Source: Paraspadella gotoi (Eukaryota > Animalia > Chaetognatha). From it: a DNA stretch of 64,000 bases. Shown here piece by piece: positions 1,028 to 61,100 of the stretch (position 1 is its first letter; each line of letters begins with the position of its first letter). Both the position numbers and the translations under genes were made by a program. The notes under the pieces are model-generated. The model had not been told where the DNA came from, searched no databases, and saw only the letters and a list, made by a program, of their open reading frames with translations. The stretch is from assembly GCA_051294375.1 (NCBI GenBank), contig CM119269.1, forward strand, positions 7,359,446 to 7,423,445. The letters are read 5' to 3'.

Positions 1028-11938
<10,911 letters not shown>

Positions 11939-14689: not shown

Positions 14690-14853
14690 AAACAGTGAGA
14701 CGGACGGAGGGACATAATTTTTTAAATAATTTATCATAATTAGCTGATTTTACATGATCTTAGTGACTTTCCGACAAGATTTTTGGGTAGGACCGACGAA
14801 CCGACAACGTAAATTAAAGAGCCGGAATCTGCTGTAAACAGAACCGGCTAAAA
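14690..14853 (+). mobile_element. Degenerate 3' part of HINE/DINE-1-like (Helentron-type non-autonomous) repeat
   Basis: gacggacggagggacata...ataatttatcataatt...gaccgacgaaccgacaac...ggaatctgctg...ctaaaaa aligns by eye with the 3' half of the element at 51351-51756. Confidence 0.55.
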
Positions 14854-14918
14854 ATGATGGTGGCGAGCAACAAAAGCAGATGTTTTCATTAATGGAAAAG
14901 GAATTAATCGTTGTCTTT

Positions 14919-17318: not shown

Positions 17319-17480
17319 GAATTCTTAGAGGATCTGAATGAACTAATGGATTCTTAGAGGATATGAATGAATTTATGAATTCTTAGAGGATATGAATGAA
17401 CTAGTGGATTCTTAGAGGATATGAATGAATTTATGAATTCTTAAAGGATATGAATGAATTTGTGGATTCTTAGAGGATAT
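17319..17480 (+). repeat. Minisatellite, ~29-bp unit (attcttagaggatatgaatgaa...), about 5-6 copies
   Basis: Directly visible tandem repetition of ttcttagaggatatgaatgaa with alternating variants. Confidence 0.85.
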
Positions 17481-17481
17481 T

Positions 17482-17533
17482 ATTTAACACCAATCTCTTC
17501 GAGACGTGGGTTCGAATCCCACCGTTGCCACCA
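17482..17533 (+). pseudogene. 5'-truncated tRNA-Leu fragment ending in CCA
   Basis: ccaatctcttcgagacgtgggttcgaatcccaccgttgcca-cca resembles the variable arm, T-arm (B-box GGTTCGAATCCC) and acceptor 3' strand of eukaryotic tRNA-Leu; D-arm and 5' acceptor strand are absent. Confidence 0.7.
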
Positions 17534-18583
17534 CATTTATGTAAGTAGACAGGGATTATTTCAACATGAAACCAAAGTGGATTTTATTTCAATTTATGAA
17601 CAAGCGCAAGACGGTGTCAGGAATTTTATTGTAATAAGTTTTTGTTATAATCACGTCGTAATCGAATCATAAATGTGAAAAATAATCGTGAAGATAATCG
17701 CAATAGGATGACCCAATGATCTTTTCATATAATCGCAACACGATGGTCCCATAATCGCGCCATTCGTCCTTTATTCGCACCGCGATCGAAAAAATTGTTC
17801 CGATTCTCAGATTCTTGAGAGAAAAAAAAAATTGTTTTTTCCTTTTTCTTTTTTTTTTTTCAAACTCAAGACTCAAGATCATTTCATTTCGCTCCTTTTC
17901 ATTTCTTCTCTTTATGATTTCATTTTCCCGTCTTATCGCTACTTTCAAAGAAAAATTCGCCATCGTCGTCGTCGTCGTAATCCTCGTCATCATCATCATC
18001 ATCATCATCATCATCGTCGTCGTCCGCTTGCCCATTTCACACAGACGAAGTGACATTCAATGTGAGAAAAGAAAAAAAAAAGAGAAAAAAATCCATCAAA
18101 ACATTTTTTTCTTATTTTTACGACTTATGATTTCAGTCATCACATGTCCTCGCAATTTATATTTTTTCTTTCTCATTCGGGCATTTTCTTTTTAAGACAT
18201 CAATTTTTTTTTCTTTCTTTTACATTTTTTTTTTATCTTTTCAACATTTTTTTCTTCAGTAATTTAATTTTTCTTTTCTCTAATTTTTTTCTTTTACATT
18301 TTTTTTTCCTCCACTTTTTTTTTTCATCTTTGCCCAATTTCGTCAAAAGTTAACGACCTTAACGCGACTTTGACACGAAATTGACGAGCGACATCTTTTT
18401 TCGGTTCCGTCGTCGTCGTTATCGTCGTCGTTATCGACGTCGTCGTCGTCGTCGTGGGCGGTTTTTTAAATGCAGAAAATGGGGAAGGAAATTAGGAGAA
18501 ATTGAGTTGATCAGGTAACGAGTCGATTTCTGACTTTTTCTTCGCAGAAGGAAAGGCGAATACAATTTATTCATTACCCTTTA

Positions 18584-31879: not shown

Positions 31880-33990
31880 TCACTGTCGACAGAATCTCCT
31901 GACGGGCTCTTCCAAATGCGGAAAGAGTTCCAACATGTCGAGCAAACTCCCGTAGACGACGTTTTCGTAGCTGAAGGACGGAACGACGACCAGATTGATG
32001 AGAGTGTAGTTCTCCCTGGCGTCGCTACCGTTGTGCTCGGGCGTGCCCGGCTGCGGGAGTCGATAGGGAGTCTCCAGCTCGGCCGCCATCCAACACGAAG
32101 CGGGCACTTTGTGAGTGTACAGCGTCTGAGATTTTAAAAAAAGGGCAAAAGGGTTCAAGTTTCAAACGGGCAACGGAAAATTAATCCCGATTGACAAAAT
32201 CTAATCTCTGGCGAACGTAGTCGGGGTATTTGAAAATTATCGTCCATGTTTATTTACGTAAATGAATAATCGAATGAGTTTAAATTGACAAGGGCGACTT
32301 AGTTTACGACGTCAATTCAAAACAATCGCCCTTACCCGAAAATTAGCGAGCAACAGCCGTCGACTTACCCTTGGATCCTCCATGGTGTTTCCTATGAGAC
32401 GTTGAGAGTAATGGCCCTGGTTGGTGATCTGATGAAGAACGAGATTCGTTCCGCGGAGAAAAGTCCAATGTTCTTCCATGTCAATAATTTTGTGCCAACA
32501 GCTGAACTCTCGACCTTTGAGGAGATACTTGACAGAACTGGAGAGGTCCTGGCCGAGATATTAATATAAATATATATTGGTTGTACCAATTTCATAAATA
32601 TTAGCATAAAATAAATATCGAGCATAATTTTATTCTCGCCGATTGGAATTAGGAGGAGGGGTTAAGGATAGTTTAATGGTGATTTAAGGGTATTTAAGGT
32701 TTATGGAGTTTAAAGTTAATATAGTTAACTATTAATTCATTTTTAATAAAGCCTAATTTGAGTTAATTTTACTTTCGCCGATCGGGGTAAAGGGTAAGGG
32801 TTAAGGGTAATTTAGGGGCGGTTTAAGGTTAAAAGGGTTTTAAGGTTAGAGTAATTAAATATTAATTTTTTTTTTTTTAAATAAATATTTTTAGTTTTTC
32901 AAAAGACGACAACACCTTGGTTGGCGAAAATAAAATTTAACCCAATTTTGTTTACATTATTATGCAAAAAAAGCCAAAAGCTAACTTGGAAAAAATCAAA
33001 TTTTAACTAAATATTAATACAAATATAACTTAATTCAAACAATTTATAATGCTTTGTGAAATTATTAAGTGTAATTACCAGGAAATTAAAATTAATAAGA
33101 AAGCCGTTTTCAATGCTATTAGTGCATCCCTAAAATTAAATATAATCATATACAATTAAAAACCATTAGTGGCCCCACTTATTCTTGAATACTGTGGCGA
33201 ATCCTAAATTCGCCTCCCGTATAGCTTGGTGAAACTCAGCTCATCCCATTCACCAACCTTGAGTTCCGGGTTCAATCCCCTCAGGGTCACGCTGGTTAAA
33301 GTGTGATGGTGTCGGCATAAACAAGCCAGTGGTCACTGCAGGTACAAAGCCCTGAGCGCTAGCTGTAAGGAGATGCCTCACACCCCGGGCATCACACGTC
33401 TCCCCATTTCTATAATACTTCCTTTTATTACCTTAACTTTTGATTGAGGCTGCAAAATCAATTCCGGCTAGGATTGGGTAAAAAAAATTTATCAATTAGA
33501 TTCAAGATTTAGGTTTAATAATTTTTTTTTTATATTTTGATCAACAAAACAATAATATTATTAATAAATTTTTACTTTTATATGTTTTACATTATACAAG
33601 GATTTTAACCTATTTTCTAAATATTTTCCCTTTTTCTTATATCATAAACCATTTTTTAAGTTAATCCCATGGGAGCTAGACCTCCCTGTATTAAATGCTT
33701 AAAATTTTAAACGATACAAAAATACCACTGCTTTTTTACTCTTTTAATTCAGAAATAAAATCCGGTCAGGTAAAATAAGATTAATATTTTGTGTCATAAC
33801 GACATACCAAAATACCAACTCCTAACATGTGACATACCGACTCTCCATGGGCAACGTTGGGTTCCGGATCCGGCTCCATCCATCCGCCTTCCAAAGGGTA
33901 GTATTCCATCTTGAACTTTTGGATAACCACTCCAGCAGGACTATTGTTTTGTATCGACTGAGCCGGGATTTGGGGCTCCAACAAATCCAT
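31880..33990 (-). CDS. Cupin_5 / DUF985 (YML079W/Cff1-like) cupin protein, 3 exons, 192 aa
   Basis: Exons 33990-33838, 32548-32369, 32125-31880, all phase 0 GT-AG. Motifs YPLEGGW (cf. HPEGG), SSSVKYLL, FSCWHKI..EEHWTFLRG, VPASCWMAAE, YTLINLVVVPSFSY, LELFPHL follow the DUF985 pattern. Confidence 0.85.
33193..33410 (+). mobile_element. SINE-like repeat family A, copy 1 (5' hairpin, tRNA-like B-box, twister-like core)
   Basis: Clearly homologous to 36808-37031. Hairpin ggcgaat-cctaa-attcgcc; B-box gggttcaatccc 33268-33279; lies in Cupin_5 intron 1. Confidence 0.8.
33314..33377 (+). ncRNA. Twister ribozyme-like motif (type-P1 order), degenerate
   Basis: P1 GGCA/UGCC, L1 UAA, P2 ACA/UGU, L2 GC, P3 CAGU/ACUG, P4 CAGG/CCUG with loop UACAAAGC followed by A, L1-3' AAGGAGA. 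Deviations: expected general-base G reads A; L4 has AC where CC would pair with GG. Confidence 0.6.
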
Positions 33991-34426
33991 CGTTAATATT
34001 TTTTATTCTGAATTAAAAAATAAATAATACTTACGTTTTAGTTTATACCTTTTTATTATATATATTAAGTATTTTTAAATTTACCCCTTAACTGCTTAAG
34101 CAGTAATTTTTATAATTTAATTTATATTGTGGAATGTCCGCAAATAAGATTAATTTTTTTTTTTCAAAAAAAAAAATTGTCACAATAAATTTCAAAAAGT
34201 AACGCTAATTTTTAACTAAGAGTCGAAGTTTTTAGTCGCAAGAAAGAAACATTTCGGGACTCGACCAACTCGAGAAGAGCAATTAGAGAAAAATAAAAAA
34301 ACCGGTCGAGAGTTAATTACAAAATTTACTATAACGAAATTTTCATCTTTTTTTTTTTATTCCTGCCTTGATTGAGACGCCTAGAGTGAAAAGCTAATTT
34401 AAACAAGAGAGCAACAGATAGAGAGA

Positions 34427-34892: not shown

Positions 34893-37438
34893 TCAAAATG
34901 TCGCGGAGGATTTCTCCTCCTTCCAAACGGGATGTCTCGCCCCAAAGACTTGAGAGACGCTTTCGAAGTCGCTCTCTTCTTCGATTCCGTCGTCGATGGA
35001 GTCGTCAACTTCGAGTGGCTCGTCCAGTGGCGTCGAGTCTTGGCCACCGCCGACACCGTCCACTCCACCTCGACCGCCTTCCCCACTTCTCTGCTCAACT
35101 CCATTTCCCGTTTATCTCCATTCTTCTGCTCGTCGTCCGTCTCTTCTCCGCAGCCGCCATTCTCGCTGCTTCGCCGAATCGTGCCGCGGCTGCACCTGCT
35201 GCTTTTCTTTCCGCTGATCTTTTTTTCCAGGAGTCGATGATGTTTCTTGCCTCAGTCGAGTCTTTGGTGATTCTTTGTAATTCTTTCTCATTTGTTCATT
35301 GTTCTGATTTAGGGCCGCTTGCACCAGTTCCTGCCTAAACTGCTTCTCGCCGGAGGCTGACTGCAGTTCTGACTTTTTCTGCAACTCGGACGCTTGCTGC
35401 ATCTCAGACGCTTGCTGCACCTCAGTATCTTGCTGCAAATCCGATCCTTGCTGCGCTCTGGCGACGACCTTTATGGCCAAGGCGAGTCTCTCCTGCCAGG
35501 ACGCCGACGAAGAGACAAACGACGCCGAGACTCGGGGTGCCGACTGAATAAATGACGCCGATTCCCGGGACGCCGAGAATTGTCTAGGGGGCGTCGATTC
35601 ATGAGGTGGGGCCGATTGACGAACCGAAGACAAACCATTCGGCGCCACTGAGGATTGCGGCGTCACTGACGTGAAATCATCCAACGTCGATGCAAAGGCG
35701 CCGCTGGTTGGTGAATCTCTCGACGCCGATGCGACTTCACCGGTTGATGCCGCTTTGGCAGCGCCGGTTGACGCCGCTTCCCTCGTTTTCGGAACGAGAG
35801 TCACGAGACTAGGAAATCCTGGTTTCGCGATGACGCGTTTCGTCTTGACGACGAAATCGGGAGAATCGCTGCGAGGGACGAAGGCGATCTGAATAATTTG
35901 ATTAATTGAATTAAATCATTGATCGATTTATTAATTTCCTTTGATTCATTTGATGAAATGATTGAATGATCCATTGATTATGATTATGATTATGATTATG
36001 TTGGTTTAAATAATTAATGACCTAGGGTTTCAATACGTAGAAAGACACGCCGATTTATTCCTTGATAAATATTATTCCCACCTTCGAGTCTATCTTTCCG
36101 GAGACTTTGAGCTGAGTCTCGTACGACGCAGCTTTCTGTCTTTCGTCATCGTCGACGCTGCGTCGCTGCCGCTGCCGCCGCTTCCCCGGCGTTGGCTCCC
36201 GTCGGTGCAGCTCCGCCTCGGCGCTGCTGTCGAGAGAAGCGGACCGGGTCACGGAACGGAGAGAGACGACGGGCGAGGACGACGCGAGAGAAATTATCGG
36301 CGCTTTGGACAAGCCGGCGTCCTTGATCGGAGTGGACGTTACGATCGAAGCGTCCTCGACGTCGTGTGTCGCAAACGGCGCCGGTCGTTCGTCGGCGTCT
36401 GCTTTGGGCTCCGCTCCGATGGGCGTGGCCTCGTCCTCGATGGGAGCGAAATTCGGCGTCAGGTTTTCCACGAATTCCGAAGAATTTTGCTCTCGATTCG
36501 GCGGCGAGGAGCGCTCCGCCGAGGTCGACGACCCTTTCCGGGATACGAGCGCTTCTCTCGGCGGCGACGAGCGGCTGCGGGAGCTTCTCCGCTCTGTCGG
36601 AAACGCCGTCGTCGACGCTTTGGTTTCGATTTCGGAGCCTAAATGTTTTTCCTGAAAGTTGGGGTTTTGAAATGTCTTTTAAAACAACTTATTATTTCCG
36701 ATCATATTTAACATCGCTATGAGTGTGACATTCGTTCAACCATTATAAAAATTATTCACTCATTCAACAAATTAGCTGTCTAGAAGTAAAAGTATTAAAA
36801 GTAGTAGTGTGGCGAATCCTTAATTTGCCTCCCGTATAGCTTAGTGAAACTCAGCTCGTCCGATTGGCTTGGACAATCCCATCACGGTCACGCTGGTTAA
36901 AATGTGATGGTATCGGCATAAACACGCCACTAACATGAGGTGGTCACTGCAGGTCCAAAGCCCTAAGCACCAGCTGTCGCAATGATGCCTCACACCCCGG
37001 GCATCACACATGCCACTTGCCACTTGCCATTGTAGCACTTTAATCAAACTTCCTTCGCAAGCAATTCCTTTTTTTTTCTTAAATCGTAATTACCCTTTCA
37101 TTTCGCTTCATCCCTAACCCTAAACACAAACTTAGTCTCTACCCTTACACTATCCTAAACTCCGACCTAATCCCTAACCTAATCTAACCTAATCTTTAAC
37201 TCATAAATTGACCATATTTCAAATTTAAGATGGAATGGGCCGTTCTCGGAAAATAAGGCCACCCTTTCCTTACCCTAGCTGCCTTCCCGCTCTGCTCTTC
37301 GATCTTCCCCCGCAGCAGGCGCAGTAGAAACTGCAGCGGATCGTCCGGCGCTGCCTTCAAAAGTTTACACATCATCTCTTCGAAAAGTTGGGTGATGCGG
37401 TGGCGTCGGATGTAGACGGTCGCGTCCTCAACGCCCAT
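34893..37438 (-). CDS. C8orf34/VEST1-like protein with N-terminal RIIa/Dpy-30-type dimerisation-docking domain
   Basis: Exons 37438-37274 (YIRRHRITQLFEEMMCKLLKAAPDDPLQFLLRLL, D/D domain), 36651-36082 and 35888 onward, all phase 0. The frame stops at TAA 35114-35112 but resumes in frame to EEESDFESVSQVFGARHPVW and TGA at 34893, a motif I recall from C8orf34-like proteins. 3' end uncertain. Confidence 0.65.
36808..37031 (+). mobile_element. SINE-like repeat family A, copy 2, with (TGCCACT)n tail
   Basis: Same 5' hairpin and body as 33193-33410; twister-like segment 36915-36989 (ggca taa acac gc ... cagg tccaaagc ccta ... tgt ... tgcc); ends tgccact-tgccact-tgccatt; lies in intron 1 of the C8orf34-like gene. 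Confidence 0.8.
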
Positions 37439-50100: not shown

Positions 50101-53100
50101 ATTTCTCTCATTCAATCATATCTGGTTTTCTTTTTTCTTTTTTTTTTATGTAAAATTGTGAAAAATATCCTAACAAAGCTTTTTAGAATTAATTGATTAC
50201 ACGTTAATAGTAATAATAATAATGATAATAATAATAAATAATAATAATAATAATAATAATGTTTGAAAAAAAATCTGATTTTTCTATAGCTTTTTTAACT
50301 TAGTTCTTAGTCAAAATTAATTACAGGATTCCGATTTTTTCCGTCTTTTGTTTCCATTTTTTTATCTCTTGATCTTATCTGCTTCTTGCTTCTGACTTTC
50401 TTATCTTTTTCATATTTTTTTTCTACGTTGTCCAATCATTTCTATCAACCCTTAAAAGTTTTTGTTTTCTTTTTCTTTTTTTAACATTTTTCTTTGTTAT
50501 TTTCTTTCCTCCTTTAGCCTTTAATTTCCTTTCCTCCTTTACACAATTGTTTCCCTTTTCCTTGTCCTTTTCCTTTCTCTCTAATTCCTTTCCTTTCCTT
50601 TCCTTTCTAACCATTTCTCCCGCGGTTATAATCAGATTTGTTGCTTTGAATTTTTTTCCCTTAGACGAATTCACGAGTCAATTCATCATCTTCAATTGTT
50701 ACCGCGCGAAACTGAAAATAAATAAATTTAACTACGTACATTCGTTCGCAGTGTTAAATACAAATGAATCTACATAGGTTTATGTAAATCGAAACACCTT
50801 TGTCCATTGTCGGCATACACCTGTATTAAAAATCAAATCTCATCGCCCTCAAGGTCATTTCGAAATCGAAAAGGAAAAAGACGACGACGACGACGACGAT
50901 TATTTCGTCAAAAAAGGCGACGACGACGAAGAAGAAGAATACGACGATTTCGACGAGGAGTTGGCCGCCTCCATCTTGAGGGAACTGGGCACCGCGCGAA
51001 AGTGAGCGGGGGGGGGCAGGTAAAAAAAGGAGGAACCGTAGGAAGAAGGAAAGGGGAAAGATGGAGAGGGAAGGGGGAGGGTAAGGAGAAAGGAGAAAGG
51101 GAGGAGAAAAGGGTAAGGTAGGATAAAGTTAAAGGATGGTAGGAGGAATGAAAGAAAGGGTAAACACTAAGTGAAAAATGAATGTTCTGTAGTCGGGCAT
51201 TGCTTTAAGTTCACCCGGCCGATAACCATTATGTACCGGGATCGACGAACTTATATACCAAAACTTGACAAAAACTTTCCCAGCTATCAAAGAGAAATTT
51301 ATATAAAAAACTGTCTTATGCCATAAGGTTAGAACGTTATGGTTAGACTTTTTTTAGTCGGATCTGCAAGTAAAAATAAGTTTAAATAGAAAAAACATTT
51401 CCGTAAATCAGATCATATAGTGATTTTTTTCCATTTCAACTCATTTCCACTTGGACCATTCCATCAAAACTTTATATCCAGCTCAATCACACACTTCCCT
51501 AACCACACACAAAATTTCATTCCTATCCATTCATCCAATCATGAGTAAATGGTGTTTTTCGCTAAGGTGGGACGGACAGACAGATAGACGGACGATCGGA
51601 CGGACGTACGGACATCTTTTTTTTGCATAATTTATCATAATTTGATGTTCTGACATGATATAAGTGAATGCCCGATAAGATTTAGGGGGCGGACCGACGG
51701 ACCGACAAAGTGAATTATAGAGTAGGGATCTGCTGATAATCAGATCCGACTAAAAACTTTGAGATAATTTATCAAATAATTTTGATAGAGCTTTCTACTC
51801 AATGAGCTTTTTTGCATTTAACATGAGTAAAACAATTATTGTGAAATATACCCCATGAGCCAAATCAAATGATATAAAATAAACCACTGCCATACTTTAC
51901 TGTATTGAGATAAACTCAATTATATTTTTTTAATTGATAGATAAATCCTTGATGTTTTTATGTATAAATTAGAAAAGTTAGAAATTGAATTCAACGAGAT
52001 TTTTATTTCAATAGATAAACCGACATGTTTCAGCTTTATTCAAGTCTTCATCAGCGTTAACAGTTGATGAATTCAATTTCAAACTTTTCTAATAACATCA
52101 ACACAACGAAAAAGAAAGCAATACGTCACTATGTATAAATTTTATTTTAATTTATAATCATTAACAACTTTACATCTATCGACGTAGAACTGACAAAGAG
52201 CTGACAAATAAACGTAAACTTAGATCGTTACTGGGTAAAAAGGAACGTTTCTGCTTGCGGAATCTTGCCCATCTAAAGTTAAGCATGCAGAAGCAACATT
52301 ACGCTAGGAGCGATTAAGAAAACCATGCAAGATTCTGTTAACAAATATTTGCCATAAAAAAATGATGGTTTTGAATCGCTTGGATTTGCTTTTGATTTAT
52401 GATTGACATAATCGGCATAAGCTGTTAGTAATTTAGATAGACATAAATAAAAAATTAAAATTAGTAAAAACCAATTAGTTTTTGAAAAAAATCTAAAATA
52501 TATGGATTTCCCTTTTAATATAAACATCTGATTAAAGATTGGAAAAAACGAAATGCACAAAAAAAAGAAAAAGTTTTTATTAAAATTAAAACACCCTTCT
52601 GAATCTTTTGGGGATTGTATTATAGCCAGGGCTTCCTTTGTTAACCGTTCAAAACTTTTTTGTCCCCTTATTGCAGTCGCAAAATCTGATTCTAATTTTG
52701 TTGCAGCATATTGAAAAAACCAAAAAACTATGACTGGTATAAAACAGGATATCGCTAAAAGCAAAATTGCAAAGATAGTCTGCTTTCGTTTGTTTAAGAC
52801 TGTTAAAAATATTTTTTTCTGGGCTACTAAGAAAATTAACAAAATTGTCAATGGATAAAAAAAGATCATTAAAGCTTTAGAGGGTTTATTTTCTTGAGAA
52901 TGTAAAAAGGGCATGGCTCCTAGATATAATAAAGATTCTATAGCTAAAATATATTGAAAAAATATTTTTTTCGATATCATTAAAAAGCTCATATCGATAA
53001 CAAAATAACAATATTTCAATAGTAAATATCATAAAAATAGTTTTATCTTGAATGAAAAAAATTGAACTATTTCCCAATACAATATAAATTTTGTTATTAA

Positions 53101-55158
53101 TAAAACAAAAAATGCTTTTTGAAATACAACCTTGAAAATAAGGAATAGTAAATGAAGTTTCCCACGATTTAAAGGAATTATCGCCATTTTTTGTTATGTA
53201 TACATAAGGTAAATATTTATGTTCCCTTTGTTTAGGTTTGTCTTCAGTTTCTCTAATATGATTAAAAACTATATCGTAAGAACTATCATAAGACAAAGTC
53301 ACAGCAAAAATTAACAAATTACAAAAAATCATCAAAAAGTTTTGAATCCAATAACAACTGTTTGCCTTTGGAACATGGTCATTAAATTTGAGAAAAGCTG
53401 AGTTTATGATAAATTTTAATTGGGTTATTGTAAAAACTCTTAGATCAAAATTGGAGTAATAGCGACGATCCAAAATGATATCTTCAATGCGTAAGAAGAA
53501 ATCAAATACAAACACAGAGAAATACCAACCATTCCTTGCAAACAACCAAAGAAGAAGCTGACCCTTTTTTTTTTACCATTCAAATCGGAGGACCTTAGGT
53601 TTGATGATGTCGTGATTAGGGTTATATTTGATAGTAAAAGAGACACAATTGGAAAATATTCCTTAATTCTCCATTCACAGACAAACTTTGACGTATTTAG
53701 AGAGTACCCAATTTTATGACACCAACAGTTTAAGCTTGTATTTTGTAAAGTCTCATTTTCTGCCTGATAATATACCACTCCTTTCACGGGTCTCCGCAAA
53801 TACGTTTGGGATAAAACCTTATCATCAACAAAACATTGCTCATCATTGATAAAAATCATGTTGTACAGAAGTGATGCTGTTTGCAAAAGCATTTGAAGAA
53901 ATGACTCCATCACAACATGAATGATATTTAAAACAAATAAAATGTTTTCTTTATAAATTATCAATTTTTTTGGTACAGTTTCTTTTGTCAATTTTAAATC
54001 ATATAATATCGGCACTGATCCGAGTCCAACACAAAAAAATAACCCGGTTACCAGTTTTTGAAATTGTGTTTTCCATATTTTGAAAAAATGATTTTCATAA
54101 TTTTTCAAAATAACCAATCCATAAAGCAATGATACAAAGTTATGAATTAGCATAACAGCGCAAAATGCTAACCCAAACAAGATTAAAGTGTAATCTTTTG
54201 ATGTTAAATGATCAATTATCGTCTTGAAGTCTGTAACCAAATCTGCAACTCCAAGAATAATCATGAAAACAACATCCTTTGATCCCGAATTCACCATTTT
54301 TGTCAATTAGAGATTTGTAATTCTTTGTATTTTTGTCTTTTATCATTTAATTATTTTTCTCCTTTTACTGTTTCTCTTCTACTTCTTGGTTTATTTTCTA
54401 CTTCTCATTCCCCATAAGAACCGAAATTAAAATGTTGTGTTGCGCCGCAGTGATTTTGTCAGCCCATGTATTTCCGTGTATTTTCGACACCGGACACGTA
54501 CTGCATTGAAATAATATCATTTATTTTTTCTTTTCCTTCCTCCCCTTCTCCTTTTTCTTTATTTTCTTATTAACCTTTTCTTTTTTTTTTCCTTTCCTCC
54601 TACCTCTTTCCAGACGGTAAATGTCAAATCAAAGCCCAAAAGCGACACCTGCGAATAATATGTTAAATGTGATGGCAGAAAATGTTTCAACATACAAAAA
54701 AAAATGACAAAAAAATTAAATATTGTATTATCCCATTTAATCAATTTCACAAATATAGTGTAAAAAGATATAAAATTAATTAAAATAATAAAGAAATTAA
54801 GATTGAGTCAAAAATATTTGATCTGCCCATTGCAGATTCCGGCTTTAGTATTCATTATGTCGGTCTGACGGTCACCTCCCATAGTTTGATCCGTCATTCA
54901 CATCGAAAATTTTACGCAAAAAAAAAACGGTGTCCTTCCGTCAGTCCACTTATCCATATCTCCGTCCGTATGTCCGTCCGTATGTCCGTCCGTCCGTATG
55001 TCCGTCCGTCCGTATGTCCGTCCGACCGTCATATATTATTATGTAGGGCAATTTCGATTACGAAATCGCATCTGGCAAAACGTCGTTGCAGTTTCTGCGC
55101 AAAATGTCAGGTGAATATGTGCGGAGAGTTCGGTGACTGGGCCTTCGTTTAATTAGCT

Positions 55159-55199
<41 letters not shown>

Positions 55200-58100
55200 A
55201 CATGTAGAGTGTAGACTAGTAGAGTGGCAATAAAAGTTAATAATGAGAACAGAGAGACATCAAATTCAAAAGAGCAACAGAGGGCTAAGCCTTGGACCCT
55301 TTCCCCCAAAATGAACTTCAAACGAGTTTTTTTCATATTTTTAGTAGGGGGTTCTCGGAAGCTCACAGCCAGGAGTGATCCAGCTCTGTGATCAGCCAAT
55401 TGAATAGTGAATTAGAATATACAGTTTTTATACACTCCTGTGCAAAAAAACGAGCCACTTTATAACTTTAAATTCCAGACACTTTTTAAAAATAATATTA
55501 AAAATTATATAAAAAAAATGAATGTTTAAATTTTATTATAATCGGTCAAGTGGTTTAAGAGATATGATTTTTTTAATGTGTATTCCAAAATCAGATGGGA
55601 AAACCGTTTTTTATCTAAAAGCTTTAAAATCATAGACCTATCTTTTATTGTATATTTCAATAAGCTTATGATTATTATTTAGGGATCTGGGGCAATCCAG
55701 TTATCCAGCTATCCCTCCGGATGTCCAGTATAATTTTTTTTCATTTTTAATCAACCATAAGGAATATAAAATATTACAAAAAAAGTTAGTCTTAAATCTG
55801 TGGTAGAGTACTTTATTTAAAAAATCGCTGCTCCTAAATAGATGACCCAATTTTAATAAAATTTATGCTAAACTTATTATTCTTCAATAAACTTTAATTT
55901 ACTTTGTTTTTTAAATTTAAGTATATATGATCATTTTTAAAGTCTGAAATAAAGTGGCGCGATTTTTTTGCACATGACTGTATATTTAAGGGAAGATAGC
56001 TCATATATTAAATAAATGGATGATTTTTATATTGGTTGTACCAATTTCATAAAATTCAGCTTCTTATATTAGCGGTGGCCGACCAAATTAAAATTTTAAT
56101 GGGAACAGCATTAAACTAATCCATTATTGGTATTAATTATTTAGTTAAAATATTTTTTTCAAAACTGTTCCGAACCATGAGTAATTCGCTAATTAAAATA
56201 TTTTACATTTTTTTAATAGATTCTGATAGAGCCCAAAAAGTTAAGCAAAAAAATGTAATATAACTTTTTTAAAATTTTAATGTTTTTTTACTGAAAATTA
56301 GTAAAAACTATGAAAATCATCGGATGATAACGATGATGATCTTTTAAGGTTTTTCCCAATTATCATCAAAATATTGAAAAAAGAATTATACTTTGTGTAG
56401 ACAACTTTTCATAAGCTATCTGAATCTGCTTTTAAAAATACAAAATTCAAAAAAATGTTTTGATATTTCCTATCTATAAATAAATAATAAGAAAATAATT
56501 ACTAGCGCTTCTTGCCATTTTAGAAAATTTTGGACCATTGTAATTTTTTTCAGAAATGTCTGGAGTTTCATTTGGGAAGGTTCACAAATCAAACTTCTGA
56601 CCCACCCCAATGACAAAGATTGGCCCTAATTATATTTTGATGCCGCTACGGAGTACAATATAGTATTCCCCGATCTAATACTTAAGGTACATACAATTTC
56701 ATACAATTGAAACATTCTTTGAAATATTATGCTACTTCAATGATTGGGAAGCCAAGCACTCTGGGAGTGAATAAAGGACACAGTGATAGAGTCTCGATTG
56801 AAAGCTTGAAGGGACCTGATATGTCATTACCCTGTAAGACTGATGGAGGCCGATCTGTTCGACGCTGTCATACCCACTCCACCGTCAACATCGGTTCGTC
56901 GCCATATTGCTGAGAAGCCCTTTGGTTTCCCGAAAAATCTCCGCAGCGCCAGAGCCAAAGCTTCGATCGAGAATAGGTGGGAATGAGAGGATCGAAGTCT
57001 GGATAGTTGGGCGTTGCAACGGTCGACGAAGATCGAGAGCATTCGACGTCTGGCGATGTCAATGTTACGTTGCTGCATTTGACCGAATGTAGATGGAGTC
57101 GGGAATGATTTATTTATCGTAATTCCGAGAAAAAAAAAAGGGAAAAATGAAGGTGTTATGGTGAACTAAAATCCACCAACCGTTCATCAGCGGCTATTGG
57201 TGCAGGAAGCAAGTCATTCGCCGGGGTTCTAGCACGGCGGCCGCATAACAGTTGAAGAGGGACCGGGACCGCTTATCCCGTCTGTGACATCCAAAGCTCA
57301 TGAACTGATTGTATTGAACCCTTCTGTCACTAACTCAAAACAAGGATTTCTGTCTCTTTAGTGGTTTGATAGATCACGTGACTTCTAAGAACAATTTTTC
57401 TGGGTCACGACTAAAGGAACTTTAGTAAAGGAGTCTTGCTTAACTATATATAGCCAGGAATATTTTATAATTTTATGTAAACACAAATTAATCAAAACCC
57501 TTCTTGCCCCCCCCCTCCACACTCTTGCCCCCCAAAACAAAGCGCCCGCAAGAATCCGTGGGGTTCCCTTTCCTACGCGGACCTCATCACACGCGCCATC
57601 TCATCCTCAACCGAGCGACGACTTACCCTCGCGCAGATCTACAAGTGGGTCGTCAGATACGTCCCTTTCTTCCGGGACAAGGCCGGGGCCAACGAGTCCG
57701 CCGGCTGGAAGGTGAGTTGCGGAAAATATTTAGTTGGGAAGAGGGTAAAGTTGGAGAGCTGAAAGTGAGTTACGTGAAAGAGAGAACCTACATTTTTTCT
57801 CTGACTTACATGGTGACAATTTTACAAGCGCCGGTAAAAAAAAGGCTGTCATTTGCAAACCAGTGGTTAGTTCATTGATTCATTTTCTTACTCACTTTTT
57901 TATATTTAATTTTTTTTCTTACTTTCAGTAAGTTTTCTGAAGAAATTTGAAATAGAATAATATTAATTATATTATCTTCTGAAAGCCCTTTCAAATCTAA
58001 AGAGAATAACATACTTGCAAATACTGTAGTATAAAATTTAACCGGCCCAGCTTAAATTTAATTAGGATACTCAAAAATAATACATCTTTCCAAAAATCAA

Positions 58101-61100
58101 TAGCTGGAGGGTAAATTTAAGATTTTTATCAAATTGTGATTAGCTATCTTAAATCTATTTTTTCAGGCTCTTTCATGATACTTATATAAATAATAATATT
58201 TTATGTTATAATAATTTAAACAGGTCATATATTTTAAAAAAGATTTGAAATTTTAGATAATTAACTTTTGACTCTCTTAATTGAACCAAGGCTGGGCCGC
58301 TTAATTTTTATGTTGGAACAAAAAATATAGATCGCCCTTTTGAGCTGGTAGTTAGGCCTCATACTCTAAGTAATCATGCATCCTCATTTCAATCAGCTCT
58401 CTCACAGTCTCGTTATTCATCAGGTACTGCTTCCTATCGAGGAAATATTAAGATTTAGAGTTTGTAAGTATATGCTTTAATTCTAGATATTAATATTAAT
58501 ACTTAATAAATACTTTGTTTAAAAAAGAGCTAAAAGTTGAAAAAAAAATCTAATTTAAAAACAGTGAGTTGGAAAATGAAACCCGATTTTACAAGCCAAC
58601 TTTCTCCACTCATTGCCAAGGCATATCTTAACTGATCAATATAAAATTTGAACACATAAATGACTTTAATATATTCTACTAAACTAATTTTTAAAATCAA
58701 TTAAATAACCACTGGTTTGCAAATGACAGCGTATTTCTACCGGCGCTTGTAAAATTGTCACCATGTGTATTGGATAGTCATTTCCAGCTTTTTAAAGCTT
58801 TCAAAAATAGGAAGGAAAATAATAAAATCGGATTTGCATCATTATTACTGATGTTTCTTAATACCATTTTCTCCCTATTTTTATATGTGTATGTTTCGAA
58901 GCCTTTAAAGGCCTTTCTATAACCTTTATCTCATTCAATCTCGATTCTACCGTAATACAAACGTTTTGAATAGCTTCAAATTTATCAAAAAAATCACGAT
59001 TTAAAATTGTCATTCAGCGGTCATTGCACTTAAACAACTTCCAACACCGCACTATGCAAATTAAATTAAAGAGAAAACAATCTCTCTCGACTCAGAATTC
59101 TATCCGGCACAACCTCTCACTCCACTCCCGCTTCGTTCGCTGCCCGAGCGAGGGCGCTGGGAAATCCTCCTGGTGGACGATCGATCCGACGGCACCGACG
59201 ACGAAGACGCCGCGCCGCCGCGCCGCCACGGCAGATGCCGATTCCATCGCCGAGAAGAGGGCGAAAGTGAAAAGGAAGGTAAGGTCAAGGAACGATTTAA
59301 TGATAAATGAATTAATGAATGAATAAATGAATTAATGAATAAATGAATGAATGAAGAATAGAGAAATGAATTTATGAATGACCGAATAAATGAAAATAAG
59401 CGCATGAACTAATAAATGAATGGATGAATTAACGAATAAACTGAGCAGTGGAAAAAATGAATATAACCGAATGAAAATATTTTGATCGATTAATTATTTT
59501 AATAAAAGAGTGGATGAATAAAATGAGTAAACAAATAAATAAAATTTTCTCACGCCAGGTGGACGCGCTTCGTCGACGAAACGCTTCCGGCTCCAACCCC
59601 TCCCCTGACCCTTCCGGACCGCGTTGGCACCCTCCGCCCCATCCGCCCCCTCCCTCTCTTAACTTGACGATGAACTCTTCCCCTCCTCGCGGCGCCGAAA
59701 CTGAACCGCGCCGCGATTCCGATTCCGTAGTAACGGCGCCGAAACTAGAAAATCCGGCGCCGGATGATATTTCCTTCCTCGCGTCCTCGGTCTTCGAATC
59801 CGCGTCTGCTCGGCCGGCGTCGGAAATCGGCGTTCGGCCACGCCCACTCACGCTGTCCCTCGATCGTCCCGCGATCGACCGTCATCGGACCTTGATCGCT
59901 TCCTCCGACCTACGCTGCCCGACACGAACGTCCTCTGCCCGAACTTCCAGCCCGCCCTCCGACCGACGAAACCTCGCCGACGCCGCGTTCGATCCTCTTA
60001 CCGACATTTCCATGGCCGACACGCCGACGACGTCGATCGCGTGGCCCCGCCTCCTCTCCTCCAACGTTAGACTTATTCCTTTGAGTCACGAAGGGAATTT
60101 TCAAAATCTCTCTTCCGCGGGTGAAATTAAGATGGGGGCCGGCTGGGGGAGGGGGGGTTTAAGTTTAGTTTGTAAATTAATCTATTAGTTTTTAAAGAGA
60201 TCGTATGGTGGACTAAAATCCACCAACCGTTCGTCAGCGGCCATTGGTGCCGGAGGCAAGTCATTCGCCTCCCAACCCAAAGGTCCGGGGTTCTCGCCCG
60301 GTGGTCGTCTGGCAGTTAAGAGGTACGGGGCGCTTAATCCGCCTGTAACACGGTGTTACAGCCTGATCCGAAGCTCAGGGACTGTCATTAACCATATGAA
60401 TAGTTACTGTCTCTTCAATCGTTTTGTCTCTGTTTTCTATTCTTTCTAAAACGCTTTAGAAAAATGTAACAACAATTCAAGGTGAGACAAAACAATAATA
60501 AACGACTCAAGGTCAGTTGAGTTGGGTCAAATAAGTTGACCCACGGAACGGTAAAGTGTTGAGTTTTCGTCGCCGTCGTCGTTGTTGTTGTAGTTGCCAT
60601 GTTCAGCTACAATTCTTTTAGATTCCTGATACATTTACATAATACAACCTGTATGCATAGAGTTTTGTGTTTACATACAGATATTGATCTGGCGCTTTCA
60701 CATCTTGAGGCCTCTCTAGCAGCCATTGAACGTGTTCTGAGCTTAGGGGATGGTCGCTACAGCCCCTAGGCGGTTTACTGCCCTCGTATTGAACCCGGTA
60801 ACCAGTGGTCAGGAGCCTCAAGAAGCCACCAGATAACGATAAGGGATCTGTTGGCATTGTGAATTCCCGCTAGATATTGTACAATACAAATGTCTAATAT
60901 TATACTGTTACTATCTCAGCCAAAACCTCCAGCGAGACCAGACCCAGTACTTCCAACACGCCGTCCGAAGGAGAAAGAAGAGAACACGGACCTCCACCTG
61001 ACCATTCGAATTTCCATGACAACGAGAAAAAGGTTGTTTCTTCGTCTATTATACAATCATAATTTTTTTTATTATTATTTTTTTATCATTATTTTTTATT

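What the first reader, a model, noticed from the sequence alone, without database searches (positions are those of the whole stretch)
33193..33410. tRNA-headed SINE carrying a type-P1 twister ribozyme-like core (family A)
Seen: a ~220-bp dispersed repeat (second copy 36808-37031) with a 5' hairpin, Pol III B-box (gggttcaatccc) and then, in order, GGCA-UAA-ACAA-GC-[P3]-CAGG-UACAAAGC-CCUG-A...UGU-AAGGAGA-UGCC. P1 extends through gtgt/acac and gtgtgatg/catcacac. Copy 2 has loop UCCAAAGC. Known: this is the twister order P1-L1(U^AA)-P2-L2(GC)-P3-P4/L4(UNNNAAGC)-P2'-L1'-P1', and twisters occur in 5' UTRs of non-LTR retrotransposons. Inference: a SINE or retrozyme-like element with an internal twister downstream of a tRNA head. 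Caveat: both copies are decayed (general-base G reads A in copy 1; P4 mismatch and altered L1' in copy 2).
Basis: partly seen in the sequence, partly recalled or inferred. Interest (0 to 1): 0.85.

Follow-up and report, generated by a model that had tools for sequence, protein, structure and literature searches.

The report
Twister ribozyme inside animal solo LTRs
These two 220-base repeats are decayed copies of an abundant family, each flanked by a 4-base duplication, and are likely leftover terminal repeats of a small LTR retrotransposon rather than a SINE; they carry a tRNA-type promoter box and a predicted self-cutting twister RNA in its rare P5 arrangement, which would cut the element's transcript into a unit that likely closes into a circle, a design I found in print only for plant elements with a different ribozyme.

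Summary
The repeat and a twister core are real, but both labels need changing. (2) Element class: both copies start TGTGGCG, end in a short imperfect inverted repeat and have exact 4-bp flank duplications; 1,098-2,052 contigs per DNA run share the same sharp edges. That fits solo LTRs of a Helenus-like TRIM, not a SINE. A second family in this window has the same P5 layout with swapped base pairs. Not shown: cleavage, Pol III transcription, circles, or an internal region with PBS/PPT. Rfam scores are far below cut-off and energy models prefer other folds in these copies. The scan has noted this kind before on other DNA of this genome (four unreviewed notes, three with two-LTR elements). Closest known: plant LTR retrozymes and Helenus. 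New variant of a known kind.

The parts
33193..33414 (+). Copy 1, inferred solo LTR (222 bp; lacks about 24, 10 and 2 bases that other copies have)
   Evidence: (edges and loose ends)
33189..33192 (+). Left 4-bp target-site duplication of copy 1 (ATAC), repeated at 33415-33418
   Evidence: the only duplication length of 2-20 that fits these edges is 4
33415..33418 (+). Right 4-bp target-site duplication of copy 1
33196..33214 (+). 5' hairpin, 7 bp
33214..33225 (+). 5' strand of a predicted outer helix that pairs with 33362-33372 and closes over the promoter and ribozyme domains
   Evidence: 9 of 11 pairs in copy 1; the two broken pairs are kept in copy 2
33222..33231 (+). A-box candidate 1 (TRGCY followed by YGG); a second candidate lies in the segment copy 1 has lost and survives in copy 2 at 36865-36872
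   Evidence: sequence; box definition from PMC10886601 section 3.5; function untested
33256..33287 (+). tRNA-like top half: 8-bp stem enclosing a T arm with the Pol III B box (33268-33279)
33291..33363 (+). Predicted type-P5 twister of copy 1; P5 = 33291-33295 with 33359-33363
33301..33309 (+). Catalytic strand: P2' (33301-33304), general-base G33305, A33306, T1 strand (33307-33309)
   Evidence: roles from twister structures as reviewed in PMC6154101
33310..33317 (+). Minimal P1 hairpin (2 bp, 4-base loop)
33318..33319 (+). Predicted scissile bond U^A
   Evidence: untested
33321..33354 (+). P2 (33321-33324), T2 (33325-33326 with 33349-33350), P3 (33327-33338), P4 (33339-33342 with 33351-33354), L4 (33343-33350)
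   Evidence: copy 1 is broken at 33324 (P2) and 33344 (T1)
33372..33397 (+). 3' segment: folds on itself (7-bp hairpin 33372-33393) or pairs with 33301-33317 (16 pairs), which would block the ribozyme
   Evidence: 8-base complement in 413 of 200,000 shuffles of the downstream stretch
36808..37031 (+). Copy 2, inferred solo LTR (224 bp; B box deleted; slipped repeats at the 3' end)
36804..36807 (+). Left 4-bp target-site duplication of copy 2 (GTAG), repeated at 37032-37035
37032..37035 (+). Right 4-bp target-site duplication of copy 2
36892..36974 (+). Predicted type-P5 twister of copy 2: general-base G36906, scissile bond 36919/36920, T1 3 of 3, T2 2 of 2, P5 5 of 5; one broken pair each in P1, P2 and P4
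32548..33836 (-). Host-gene intron that holds copy 1 in antisense orientation (context, not part of the element)
   Evidence: one contig in X7 and X8 joins 32547 to 33837 across CT..AC ends

Best explanation
The two repeats are likely solo LTRs of a small non-coding LTR retrotransposon (Helenus-like TRIM) whose LTR carries a tRNA-type promoter box followed by a predicted type-P5 twister ribozyme, and which likely works as an animal LTR retrozyme. Shown: high-copy dispersed family with sharp shared edges, 4-bp flank duplications, B box, and a sequence that fits the P5 twister fold far better than chance. Inferred cycle: RNA polymerase III (or read-through) transcribes a two-LTR element; the twister in each LTR cuts at U^A as it is made; the released unit has a 5'-OH and a 2',3'-cyclic phosphate and no terminal repeat; in the P5 arrangement the two new ends stay paired to each other through P2, T1, P5 and the outer helix, which would present them for ligation by a host ligase; the 3' segment of the LTR then pairs with the catalytic strand and would stop the circle from cutting again; a Gypsy-type helper would reverse-transcribe past one turn of the circle to rebuild both LTRs and integrate the DNA with a 4-bp duplication. 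The LTR has no T4 terminator, so the ribozyme, not the polymerase, would set both RNA ends. The two copies here are decayed and probably cut poorly or not at all.
For: P5 descriptor: total mismatches 2 (copy 1) and 3 (copy 2); 0 of 4000 shuffles of each copy reached 3 or fewer, and these are the only two sites with 3 or fewer on both strands of 64 kb. Every pair of P1, P2, P4, P5, T1 and T2 is intact in at least one of the two natural copies except the outermost P2 pair, which each copy breaks on a different side. At the 8 sites where copy 1 differs from nearly all laid DNA contigs (94-99% of depth in X1, X5, X9) the common letter makes a Watson-Crick pair in this model in 8 of 8 (read by eye); no such row appears at the catalytic G, UAA, GC or AAGC positions. 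A second family in the window (60204-60417) has the same order with different letters that keep the pairs: T1 3 of 3 with one pair swapped, P4 5 of 5 with the closing pair swapped, P5 8 of 8, P3 7 of 7, T2 2 of 2, and an exact 4-bp duplication. LTR signs: exact 4-bp duplications in 2 of 2 copies (joint chance 7e-6, or 6e-5 with one base of slack), 7 of 8 end-to-end pairs counting G-U, a mixed flank (agreement 0.41-0.45) directly before 33193 in all four runs. Precedent: animal Helenus have tRNA-like LTRs and 4-bp duplications; plant LTR retrozymes have a ribozyme in each LTR, 4-bp duplications, many solo LTRs and a blocked fold; P1 is dispensable for twister cleavage; two published wasp Helenus LTRs show a hammerhead at the same place, by eye.
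Against: No internal region, primer-binding site or polypurine tract was seen for this family; LTR status rests on ends and duplications. The ends read TA and TT, not the usual CA. Rfam scores are far below cut-off (18.3 vs 67.2; 10.6 vs 37.6), and the P5 model does not report copy 1 at all or the second family. ViennaRNA prefers other folds in both natural copies: ribozyme domain -21.1 vs -11.3 (copy 1) and -24.7 vs -9.2 kcal/mol (copy 2), pseudoknots unscored; whole copy 1 -72.7 vs -54.2. No covariation is seen within family A, only mismatches; the fold model was partly drawn after seeing the variant table, so the 8-of-8 count is not a blind test. In the second family the better copy lacks the catalytic G and has a short P2. 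No tRNA is called and the A box is weak. Cleavage, Pol III use and circles are untested.
Confidence: 0.65

Rival explanations
1. Solo LTRs with an active P5 twister, but no circle: the element (TRIM or a coding Gypsy element) uses the cut only to trim or end a linear RNA, or to destroy read-through transcripts.
For: All LTR and twister evidence above applies equally; no circle was observed; the internal region is unknown, so a coding element is not excluded.
Against: Cuts at the same place in both LTRs leave no terminal repeat for strand transfer, the problem that circularisation solves in plant retrozymes (PMC4918200); the blocking segment is expected for a stable circle. Unreviewed notes report short non-coding two-LTR elements in this genome.
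Confidence: 0.14
2. The LTR carries a twister-derived fold that no longer cuts; it is kept for RNA structure, packaging or promoter spacing.
For: Low Rfam scores; competing folds are more stable in both copies; P1 has only 2 pairs.
Against: All catalytic letters and both pseudoknots are shared by nearly all laid contigs, and a second family keeps the pairs with other letters.
Confidence: 0.1
3. A tRNA-headed SINE with an internal twister, working like the schistosome SM-alpha repeats that need tandem copies.
For: B box and T arm upstream of a ribozyme is the SM-alpha order (PMC6765202); copy 2 has short tandem repeats at its 3' end; twisters are linked to non-LTR elements (PMC8501958; PMC7761336).
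Against: Fixed 4-bp duplications in 2 of 2 copies (3 of 3 with the family-B copy at 60204; the fourth, at 57157, matches at 3 of 4 bases); TG start well upstream of the boxes; inverted ends; the tandem tail is not shared by the family; copies do not start at the cut.
Confidence: 0.06
4. A non-autonomous DNA transposon of the integrase (Ginger-like) type, which also leaves 4-bp duplications and TG ends (recalled, no call), carrying a passenger RNA fold.
For: Short inverted ends and 4-bp duplications; no internal region seen here.
Against: The inverted ends are only about 8 imperfect bases; a DNA transposon gives no reason to conserve an RNA fold and a Pol III box.
Confidence: 0.05

Closest known systems
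Plant LTR retrozymes (Cervera, Urbina, de la Pena 2016, PMC4918200; review PMC7761336)
   Same: Self-cleaving ribozyme inside an LTR of about 250-400 bp, 4-bp target duplications, many solo LTRs, a complementary segment that blocks the ribozyme fold.
   Different: Plant elements use a type III hammerhead and are described without a Pol III promoter; the review states metazoan retrozymes lack LTRs, PBS and PPT. Here: animal host, twister type P5, tRNA-type B box. Circles are shown for plants, not here.
Helenus TRIMs / TRIMp3 (Kojima 2024, PMC10886601)
   Same: Animal LTRs starting TGT with A- and B-box motifs, 4-bp duplications, inferred Gypsy helper, solo LTRs.
   Different: In the LTRs I read (supplement parts 1 and 7 of 11) the tRNA-like part lies near the 3' end before a T run; here it lies in the 5' half, no T4 run follows, and a twister fills the 3' half. 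The paper's text has 'twister' 0 times and 'ribozyme' once, in a reference. Helenus-2_SyJa and -2_SyUm LTRs show, by eye, a type III hammerhead after the tRNA-like part, the same layout with another ribozyme.
Type-P5 twister ribozyme (Rfam RF02684)
   Same: Order P2'-GA-T1-P1 hairpin-UAA-P2-GC-P3-P4/L4, both pseudoknots, catalytic G.
   Different: P1 is only 2 bp plus a 4-base loop where the Rfam model has about 20 positions, and a full P3 is present; score far below cut-off. A P5 stem occurs in 1% of annotated twisters (PMC6154101).
Schistosome SM-alpha SINE-like repeats and S. mansoni twister T-variants (PMC6765202, PMC8501958)
   Same: Pol III-type boxes followed by a ribozyme (SM-alpha); twister in an animal retroelement (T-variants).
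   Different: SM-alpha uses a hammerhead and tandem copies; T-variants sit at the 5' end of non-LTR elements. Neither has LTR-type ends.

Membership tests
Twister ribozyme | Conserved core letters: UAA at the cut, GC of T2, U...AAGC of L4, GA with the general-base G | tested here: met
   All present in both copies in the P5 register
Twister ribozyme | Pseudoknots T1 and T2 and stems P2, P4 paired | tested here: met
   T2 2 of 2 in both; T1 3 of 3 in copy 2, 2 of 3 in copy 1; P2 3 of 4 in each; P4 4 of 4 and 3 of 4; broken sites of copy 1 are private to it
Twister ribozyme | Rfam gathering score | tested here: not met
   18.3 vs 67.2 (P1); 10.6 vs 37.6 (P5); both copies are decayed and the minimal P1 differs from the model
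Twister ribozyme | Covariation of the paired regions | tested here: inconclusive
   None within family A (two copies); pair swaps in T1 and P4 between families A and B
Twister ribozyme | Site-specific self-cleavage at U^A | not testable with these tools
   Needs transcription in vitro
Twister type P1 | P2', GA and T1 strand lie downstream of P4, closed by terminal P1 | tested here: not met
   6 and 5 extra mismatches against 2 and 2 for the upstream register
tRNA-derived SINE | tRNA head at the element's 5' end | tested here: not met
   Element starts 29 bases before the first A-box candidate; no tRNA call
tRNA-derived SINE | Variable-length target duplication and A-rich or tandem tail (recalled) | tested here: not met
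   Exactly 4 bp in both copies; shared tail ends in an inverted repeat of the 5' end
Helenus TRIM | LTR with TRGCY/YGG A box and GGTTC B box | tested here: met
   B box 33269-33273; A-box candidates 33222 and 36865; A box weak
Helenus TRIM | 4-bp target duplication (animal lineages) | tested here: met
   2 of 2 copies
Helenus TRIM | TG...CA-type LTR ends | tested here: inconclusive
   TGT start; ends read TA and TT; one published Helenus LTR also ends in TA
Helenus TRIM | Two LTRs around a short non-coding internal region with PBS and PPT | not testable with these tools
   No genome held; laid contigs did not show an internal region; reported for look-alike elements of this genome only in unreviewed notes
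LTR retrozyme | Type III hammerhead in each LTR | tested here: not met
   The ribozyme is a predicted twister; no hammerhead hit
LTR retrozyme | Ribozyme-blocking complementary segment in the LTR | tested here: met
   33374-33397 pairs with 33301-33317, 16 of 16 in three helices; role inferred
LTR retrozyme | Circular unit-length RNA in cells | not testable with these tools
   Only contigs were available

The most novel reading that the evidence does not exclude
Animals have their own LTR retrozymes: Pol III-driven TRIMs in which a swappable ribozyme (a minimal type-P5 twister here, in at least two families; a hammerhead in wasp Helenus) replaces start and stop signals, cuts out a unit RNA, holds its ends for ligation and is then switched off by a built-in antisense strand, so that thousands of genomic copies spread through viroid-like circles.
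Probability: 0.5. Interest if true: 0.8.

Novelty: new variant of a known kind. Interest (0 to 1): 0.68.

Why it matters
Twister ribozymes have few assigned biological roles, and LTR retrozymes are described as a plant, hammerhead-only design. A high-copy animal LTR family with a twister in the rare P5 arrangement would extend that design to animals and to a second ribozyme class, join it to the Pol III TRIMs (Helenus), and give a direct test of why ribozymes sit in LTRs: the cut site, the circle junction and the blocking strand are all predicted to the base. It also shows that Rfam models miss this minimal-P1 form, so similar elements may be unannotated elsewhere.

Tried and rejected
Type-P1 reading: rejected. 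tRNA gene: none. Whole-window Rfam scan at E<=1: no ribozyme among 27 hits, mostly microsatellite-driven miRNA matches. No genome held, so no genome-wide alignment. One exact 26-base pattern in metagenome contigs: 0 hits. Sequencing-run search: no RNA holder listed on record; X7 and X8 hold a spliced contig of the host gene and give near-identical numbers, so they may be one data set. Family-like contigs are present in X7/X8, and X7's depth relative to DNA runs falls to 0.035-0.042 in the two bins around the predicted cut against 0.10-0.13 in the bins on either side, while X5/X9 stays at 0.74-1.14; the ratio is also low (0.06) at the 5' end, contigs cannot show RNA ends, and I do not count this as evidence. 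Empty-site allele for copy 1: no contig bridges the site in X5, X6, X7 or X8, so the duplication was not confirmed that way. Summed depth (1-4 x 10^5 against about 80-110 on unique flank in X1) suggests many copies but is not a copy number. Host identification by an XK-like protein: no hits among longer proteins; Pfam gave only weak XK-related and cadherin matches in 2 of 9 frames. Twister L4 words in the Helenus consensus file: 14 + 9 places, none in a GGU-NNN-AAGCC context; line breaks can hide matches and other P4 closing pairs were not searched. Sequence look-ups among earlier findings: 0 look-alikes for either copy, so I cannot say whether the reported two-LTR elements belong to this family. 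Literature: eight searches showed no paper describing a twister in an LTR or an animal LTR retrozyme; most subscription journals, Repbase and bioRxiv supplements were not searched.
Full report
What is in the sequence. The window is AT-rich, microsatellite-rich eukaryotic DNA with intron-split genes (weak cadherin and XK-related matches in 2 of 9 frames). No genome is held. The repeat occurs twice, at 33193-33414 and 36808-37031, 78% identical. Copy 1 lies antisense in an intron: a contig in runs X7 and X8 joins 32547 to 33837 across CT..AC ends. Copy 2 lies between minus-strand splice signals near 37273 and 36654 (sequence only). Copy 1 keeps the B box and T arm; copy 2 has lost them but keeps a longer P3 and part of a segment copy 1 lacks.

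It is an abundant dispersed family. At 80% likeness 2,052, 1,147, 182 and 1,098 contigs were laid on copy 1 in X1, X5, X7 and X9. Cover starts sharply at 33193, where 73, 67, 16 and 65 contigs continue into unrelated AT-rich flanks (agreement 0.41-0.45), and the three DNA runs share a tail of 19 bases after 33397 before flanks diverge. Counting the segments copy 1 lacks, the usual unit is about 258 bases (read from loose ends, approximate). Summed depth is not a copy number, but it is three orders of magnitude above the unique flank.

The twister is type P5, not P1. Rfam points to twister but weakly: P1 at 18.3 bits on copy 1 (13.5 on a cut stretch), nothing on copy 2 in the wide stretch, P5 at 10.6 bits on a narrow one. 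A descriptor run on the two natural copies finds the shared core with 0 and 1 mismatches. No shuffle of 4000 per copy reached 3 or fewer in either register (best 4), and no other site in 64 kb on both strands does (two P1-type sites reach 4). In this register the order is P5 (33291-33295), P2' (33301-33304), G33305, A33306, T1 strand (33307-33309), a 2-bp P1 with a 4-base loop, U33318^A33319, P2, GC, P3, P4, L4, P4', P5'. Copy 1 is broken at 33324 and 33344; copy 2 at one pair each of P1, P2 and P4. Table 3 has 15 rows: 8 sites where 94-99% of depth in the three DNA runs differs from copy 1, 3 low-depth rows at the edge of copy 1's deletion, and 4 rows driven by one X7 contig. At all 8 main sites the common letter pairs in my model (P2, T1, P5, outer helix twice, the stem under the T arm twice, and a stem seen in copy 2); I read this by eye and drew part of the model after seeing the table. 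No row falls on a catalytic letter. The review PMC6154101 (passages) gives the roles of T1, T2 and the general-base G, states that P1 is dispensable, and that a P5 stem occurs in 1% of annotated twisters.

A second family supports the fold. The pair at 57157 and 60204 (74% alike; alignment) has a 5' hairpin, a B-box-like word and, in the 60204 copy, the same P5 order: P5 8 of 8, T1 3 of 3, P1 2 of 2, T2 2 of 2, P3 7 of 7, P4 5 of 5, with a T1 pair and the P4 closing pair changed on both sides relative to family A. Its P2 is short, the general-base position reads T in that copy and G in the other (57261), and Rfam finds no ribozyme there.

Against the fold. Energy models favour other structures in both decayed copies by 10-18 kcal/mol when pseudoknots are not scored; copy 1 folds better than shuffles (z -2.9), copy 2 does not (z -0.7). 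There is no covariation inside family A. Cleavage is untested.

The element is LTR-like, not SINE-like. Both copies start TGTGGCG, and their last 8 bases pair with the first 8 at 7 positions counting G-U. With the 3' edge set by the shared tail, both have an exact flank duplication, and 4 is the only length from 2 to 20 that fits; the joint chance from local word frequencies is 7e-6, or 6e-5 with one base of slack. The family-B copy at 60204-60417 also has an exact 4-bp duplication and ends in CA; the one at 57157-57360 matches at 3 of 4. The element begins 29 bases before the first A-box candidate; a second candidate, seen in copy 2, would lie about 43 bases before the B box in complete copies, close to tRNA spacing. 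There is no T4 run on the + strand inside either copy. ARAGORN and Rfam call no tRNA. A ribozyme in the middle of a lone SINE RNA would cut the promoter from the tail and give copies that start at the cut; they do not. In a two-LTR element the same cut in each LTR yields a unit that holds every base of one LTR once.

The segment 33374-33397 pairs with 33301-33317 in three perfect helices (8, 4 and 4 bp), or folds on itself as a 7-bp hairpin. The 8-base match arises in 413 of 200,000 shuffles of the downstream stretch. It covers the catalytic G, so it would inhibit. Because it is transcribed after the ribozyme, cutting could happen first. Plant retrozyme LTRs are predicted to hold their hammerhead in such a blocked fold (PMC4918200, passages).

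Mechanism. Shown: family, edges, duplications, B box, sequence fit to a P5 twister, blocking complementarity. Inferred: two-LTR parent, Pol III transcription, co-transcriptional cleavage, ligation to a circle, Gypsy-type helper. The model follows the plant retrozyme cycle (PMC4918200, passages). Both family-A copies being antisense in introns fits selection against cutting host pre-mRNA, but two cases prove nothing.

Comparison with print. Kojima 2024 (PMC10886601; text parts 1-4 of 6; supplement parts 1 and 7 of 11 and three searches) defines Helenus: TRIMs with tRNA-like LTRs and 4-bp duplications in animals; the text never mentions twister and names ribozymes only in a reference. The review PMC7761336 (passages) and a 2026 preprint (10.64898/2026.07.22.740005, passages; supplements closed) treat LTR retrozymes as plant, hammerhead-bearing elements and metazoan ones as non-LTR. 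Twisters are tied to non-LTR elements in PMC8501958 (passages) and PMC7761336; SM-alpha is described in PMC6765202 (passages and section 11 part 1 of 2). PMC10085705 and PMC12542633, passages only, add no LTR link. Eight searches listed no paper on a twister in an LTR; the original twister paper (Roth 2014) was not read. I therefore file it as working like an LTR retrozyme and resembling Helenus, without claiming membership in either: the hammerhead criterion fails and the PBS/PPT criterion could not be tested.

Earlier notes of this scan. My reading (solo LTR, Helenus-like, type P5) was on record before the first look-up. Four unreviewed notes on other pieces of this genome describe twister-bearing LTR elements, three of them with two LTRs (647, 663 and 742 bases); one note suggests an arrow-worm host. 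Sequence look-ups found no look-alike of either copy, so these are leads, not support, and may be other families.

Verdict. Observation partly confirmed; interpretation partly supported. Best reading: solo LTRs of an animal LTR-retrozyme-like TRIM with a type-P5 twister, confidence 0.65. New variant of a known kind; interest 0.68.

Noticed in passing
window 57157-57360 and 60204-60417 (fragment at about 62261-62323, minus strand): A second repeat family with a 5' hairpin, B-box-like word, the same type-P5 twister order with different paired letters, and a 4-bp flank duplication (exact at 60204); no Rfam ribozyme hit.
   Followed up: partly
PMC10886601 supplement DataS1, Helenus-2_SyJa-LTR and Helenus-2_SyUm-LTR: By eye these published wasp LTRs hold a type III hammerhead after the tRNA-like part; the paper does not mention it.
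   Followed up: partly
window 1029-6227 and 6329-11937: A large inverted duplication of about 5 kb at 85-89% identity, possibly a haplotype or assembly artefact.
   Followed up: no
window 17450-17535: A tRNA-like T arm and acceptor stem (B box at 17509; weak tmRNA match) after a short tandem array at 17321-17488; possibly a real SINE or tRNA remnant.
   Followed up: no
window 32369-32547, 33837-34007, 34085-34246 (minus strand): Three exons of the host gene around copy 1, joined in one contig of X7/X8; protein not identified.
   Followed up: partly
X7 record 23: A 1,374-base contig of unusually high depth (1,053) carries a divergent copy of the repeat near one end and runs on into AT-rich sequence.
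   Followed up: no
window 52279-54306 (minus strand): An intronless XK-related-like reading frame split over three frames (weak Pfam match; no homologues among longer proteins).
   Followed up: partly
window 14699-14854 and 51599-51756; 57808-57880 and 58695-58766; 61747-62070; 32568-32634: Other small repeats: a 79% dispersed pair, an inverted pair, a 34-base tandem array, and a short high-depth AT-rich stretch.
   Followed up: no
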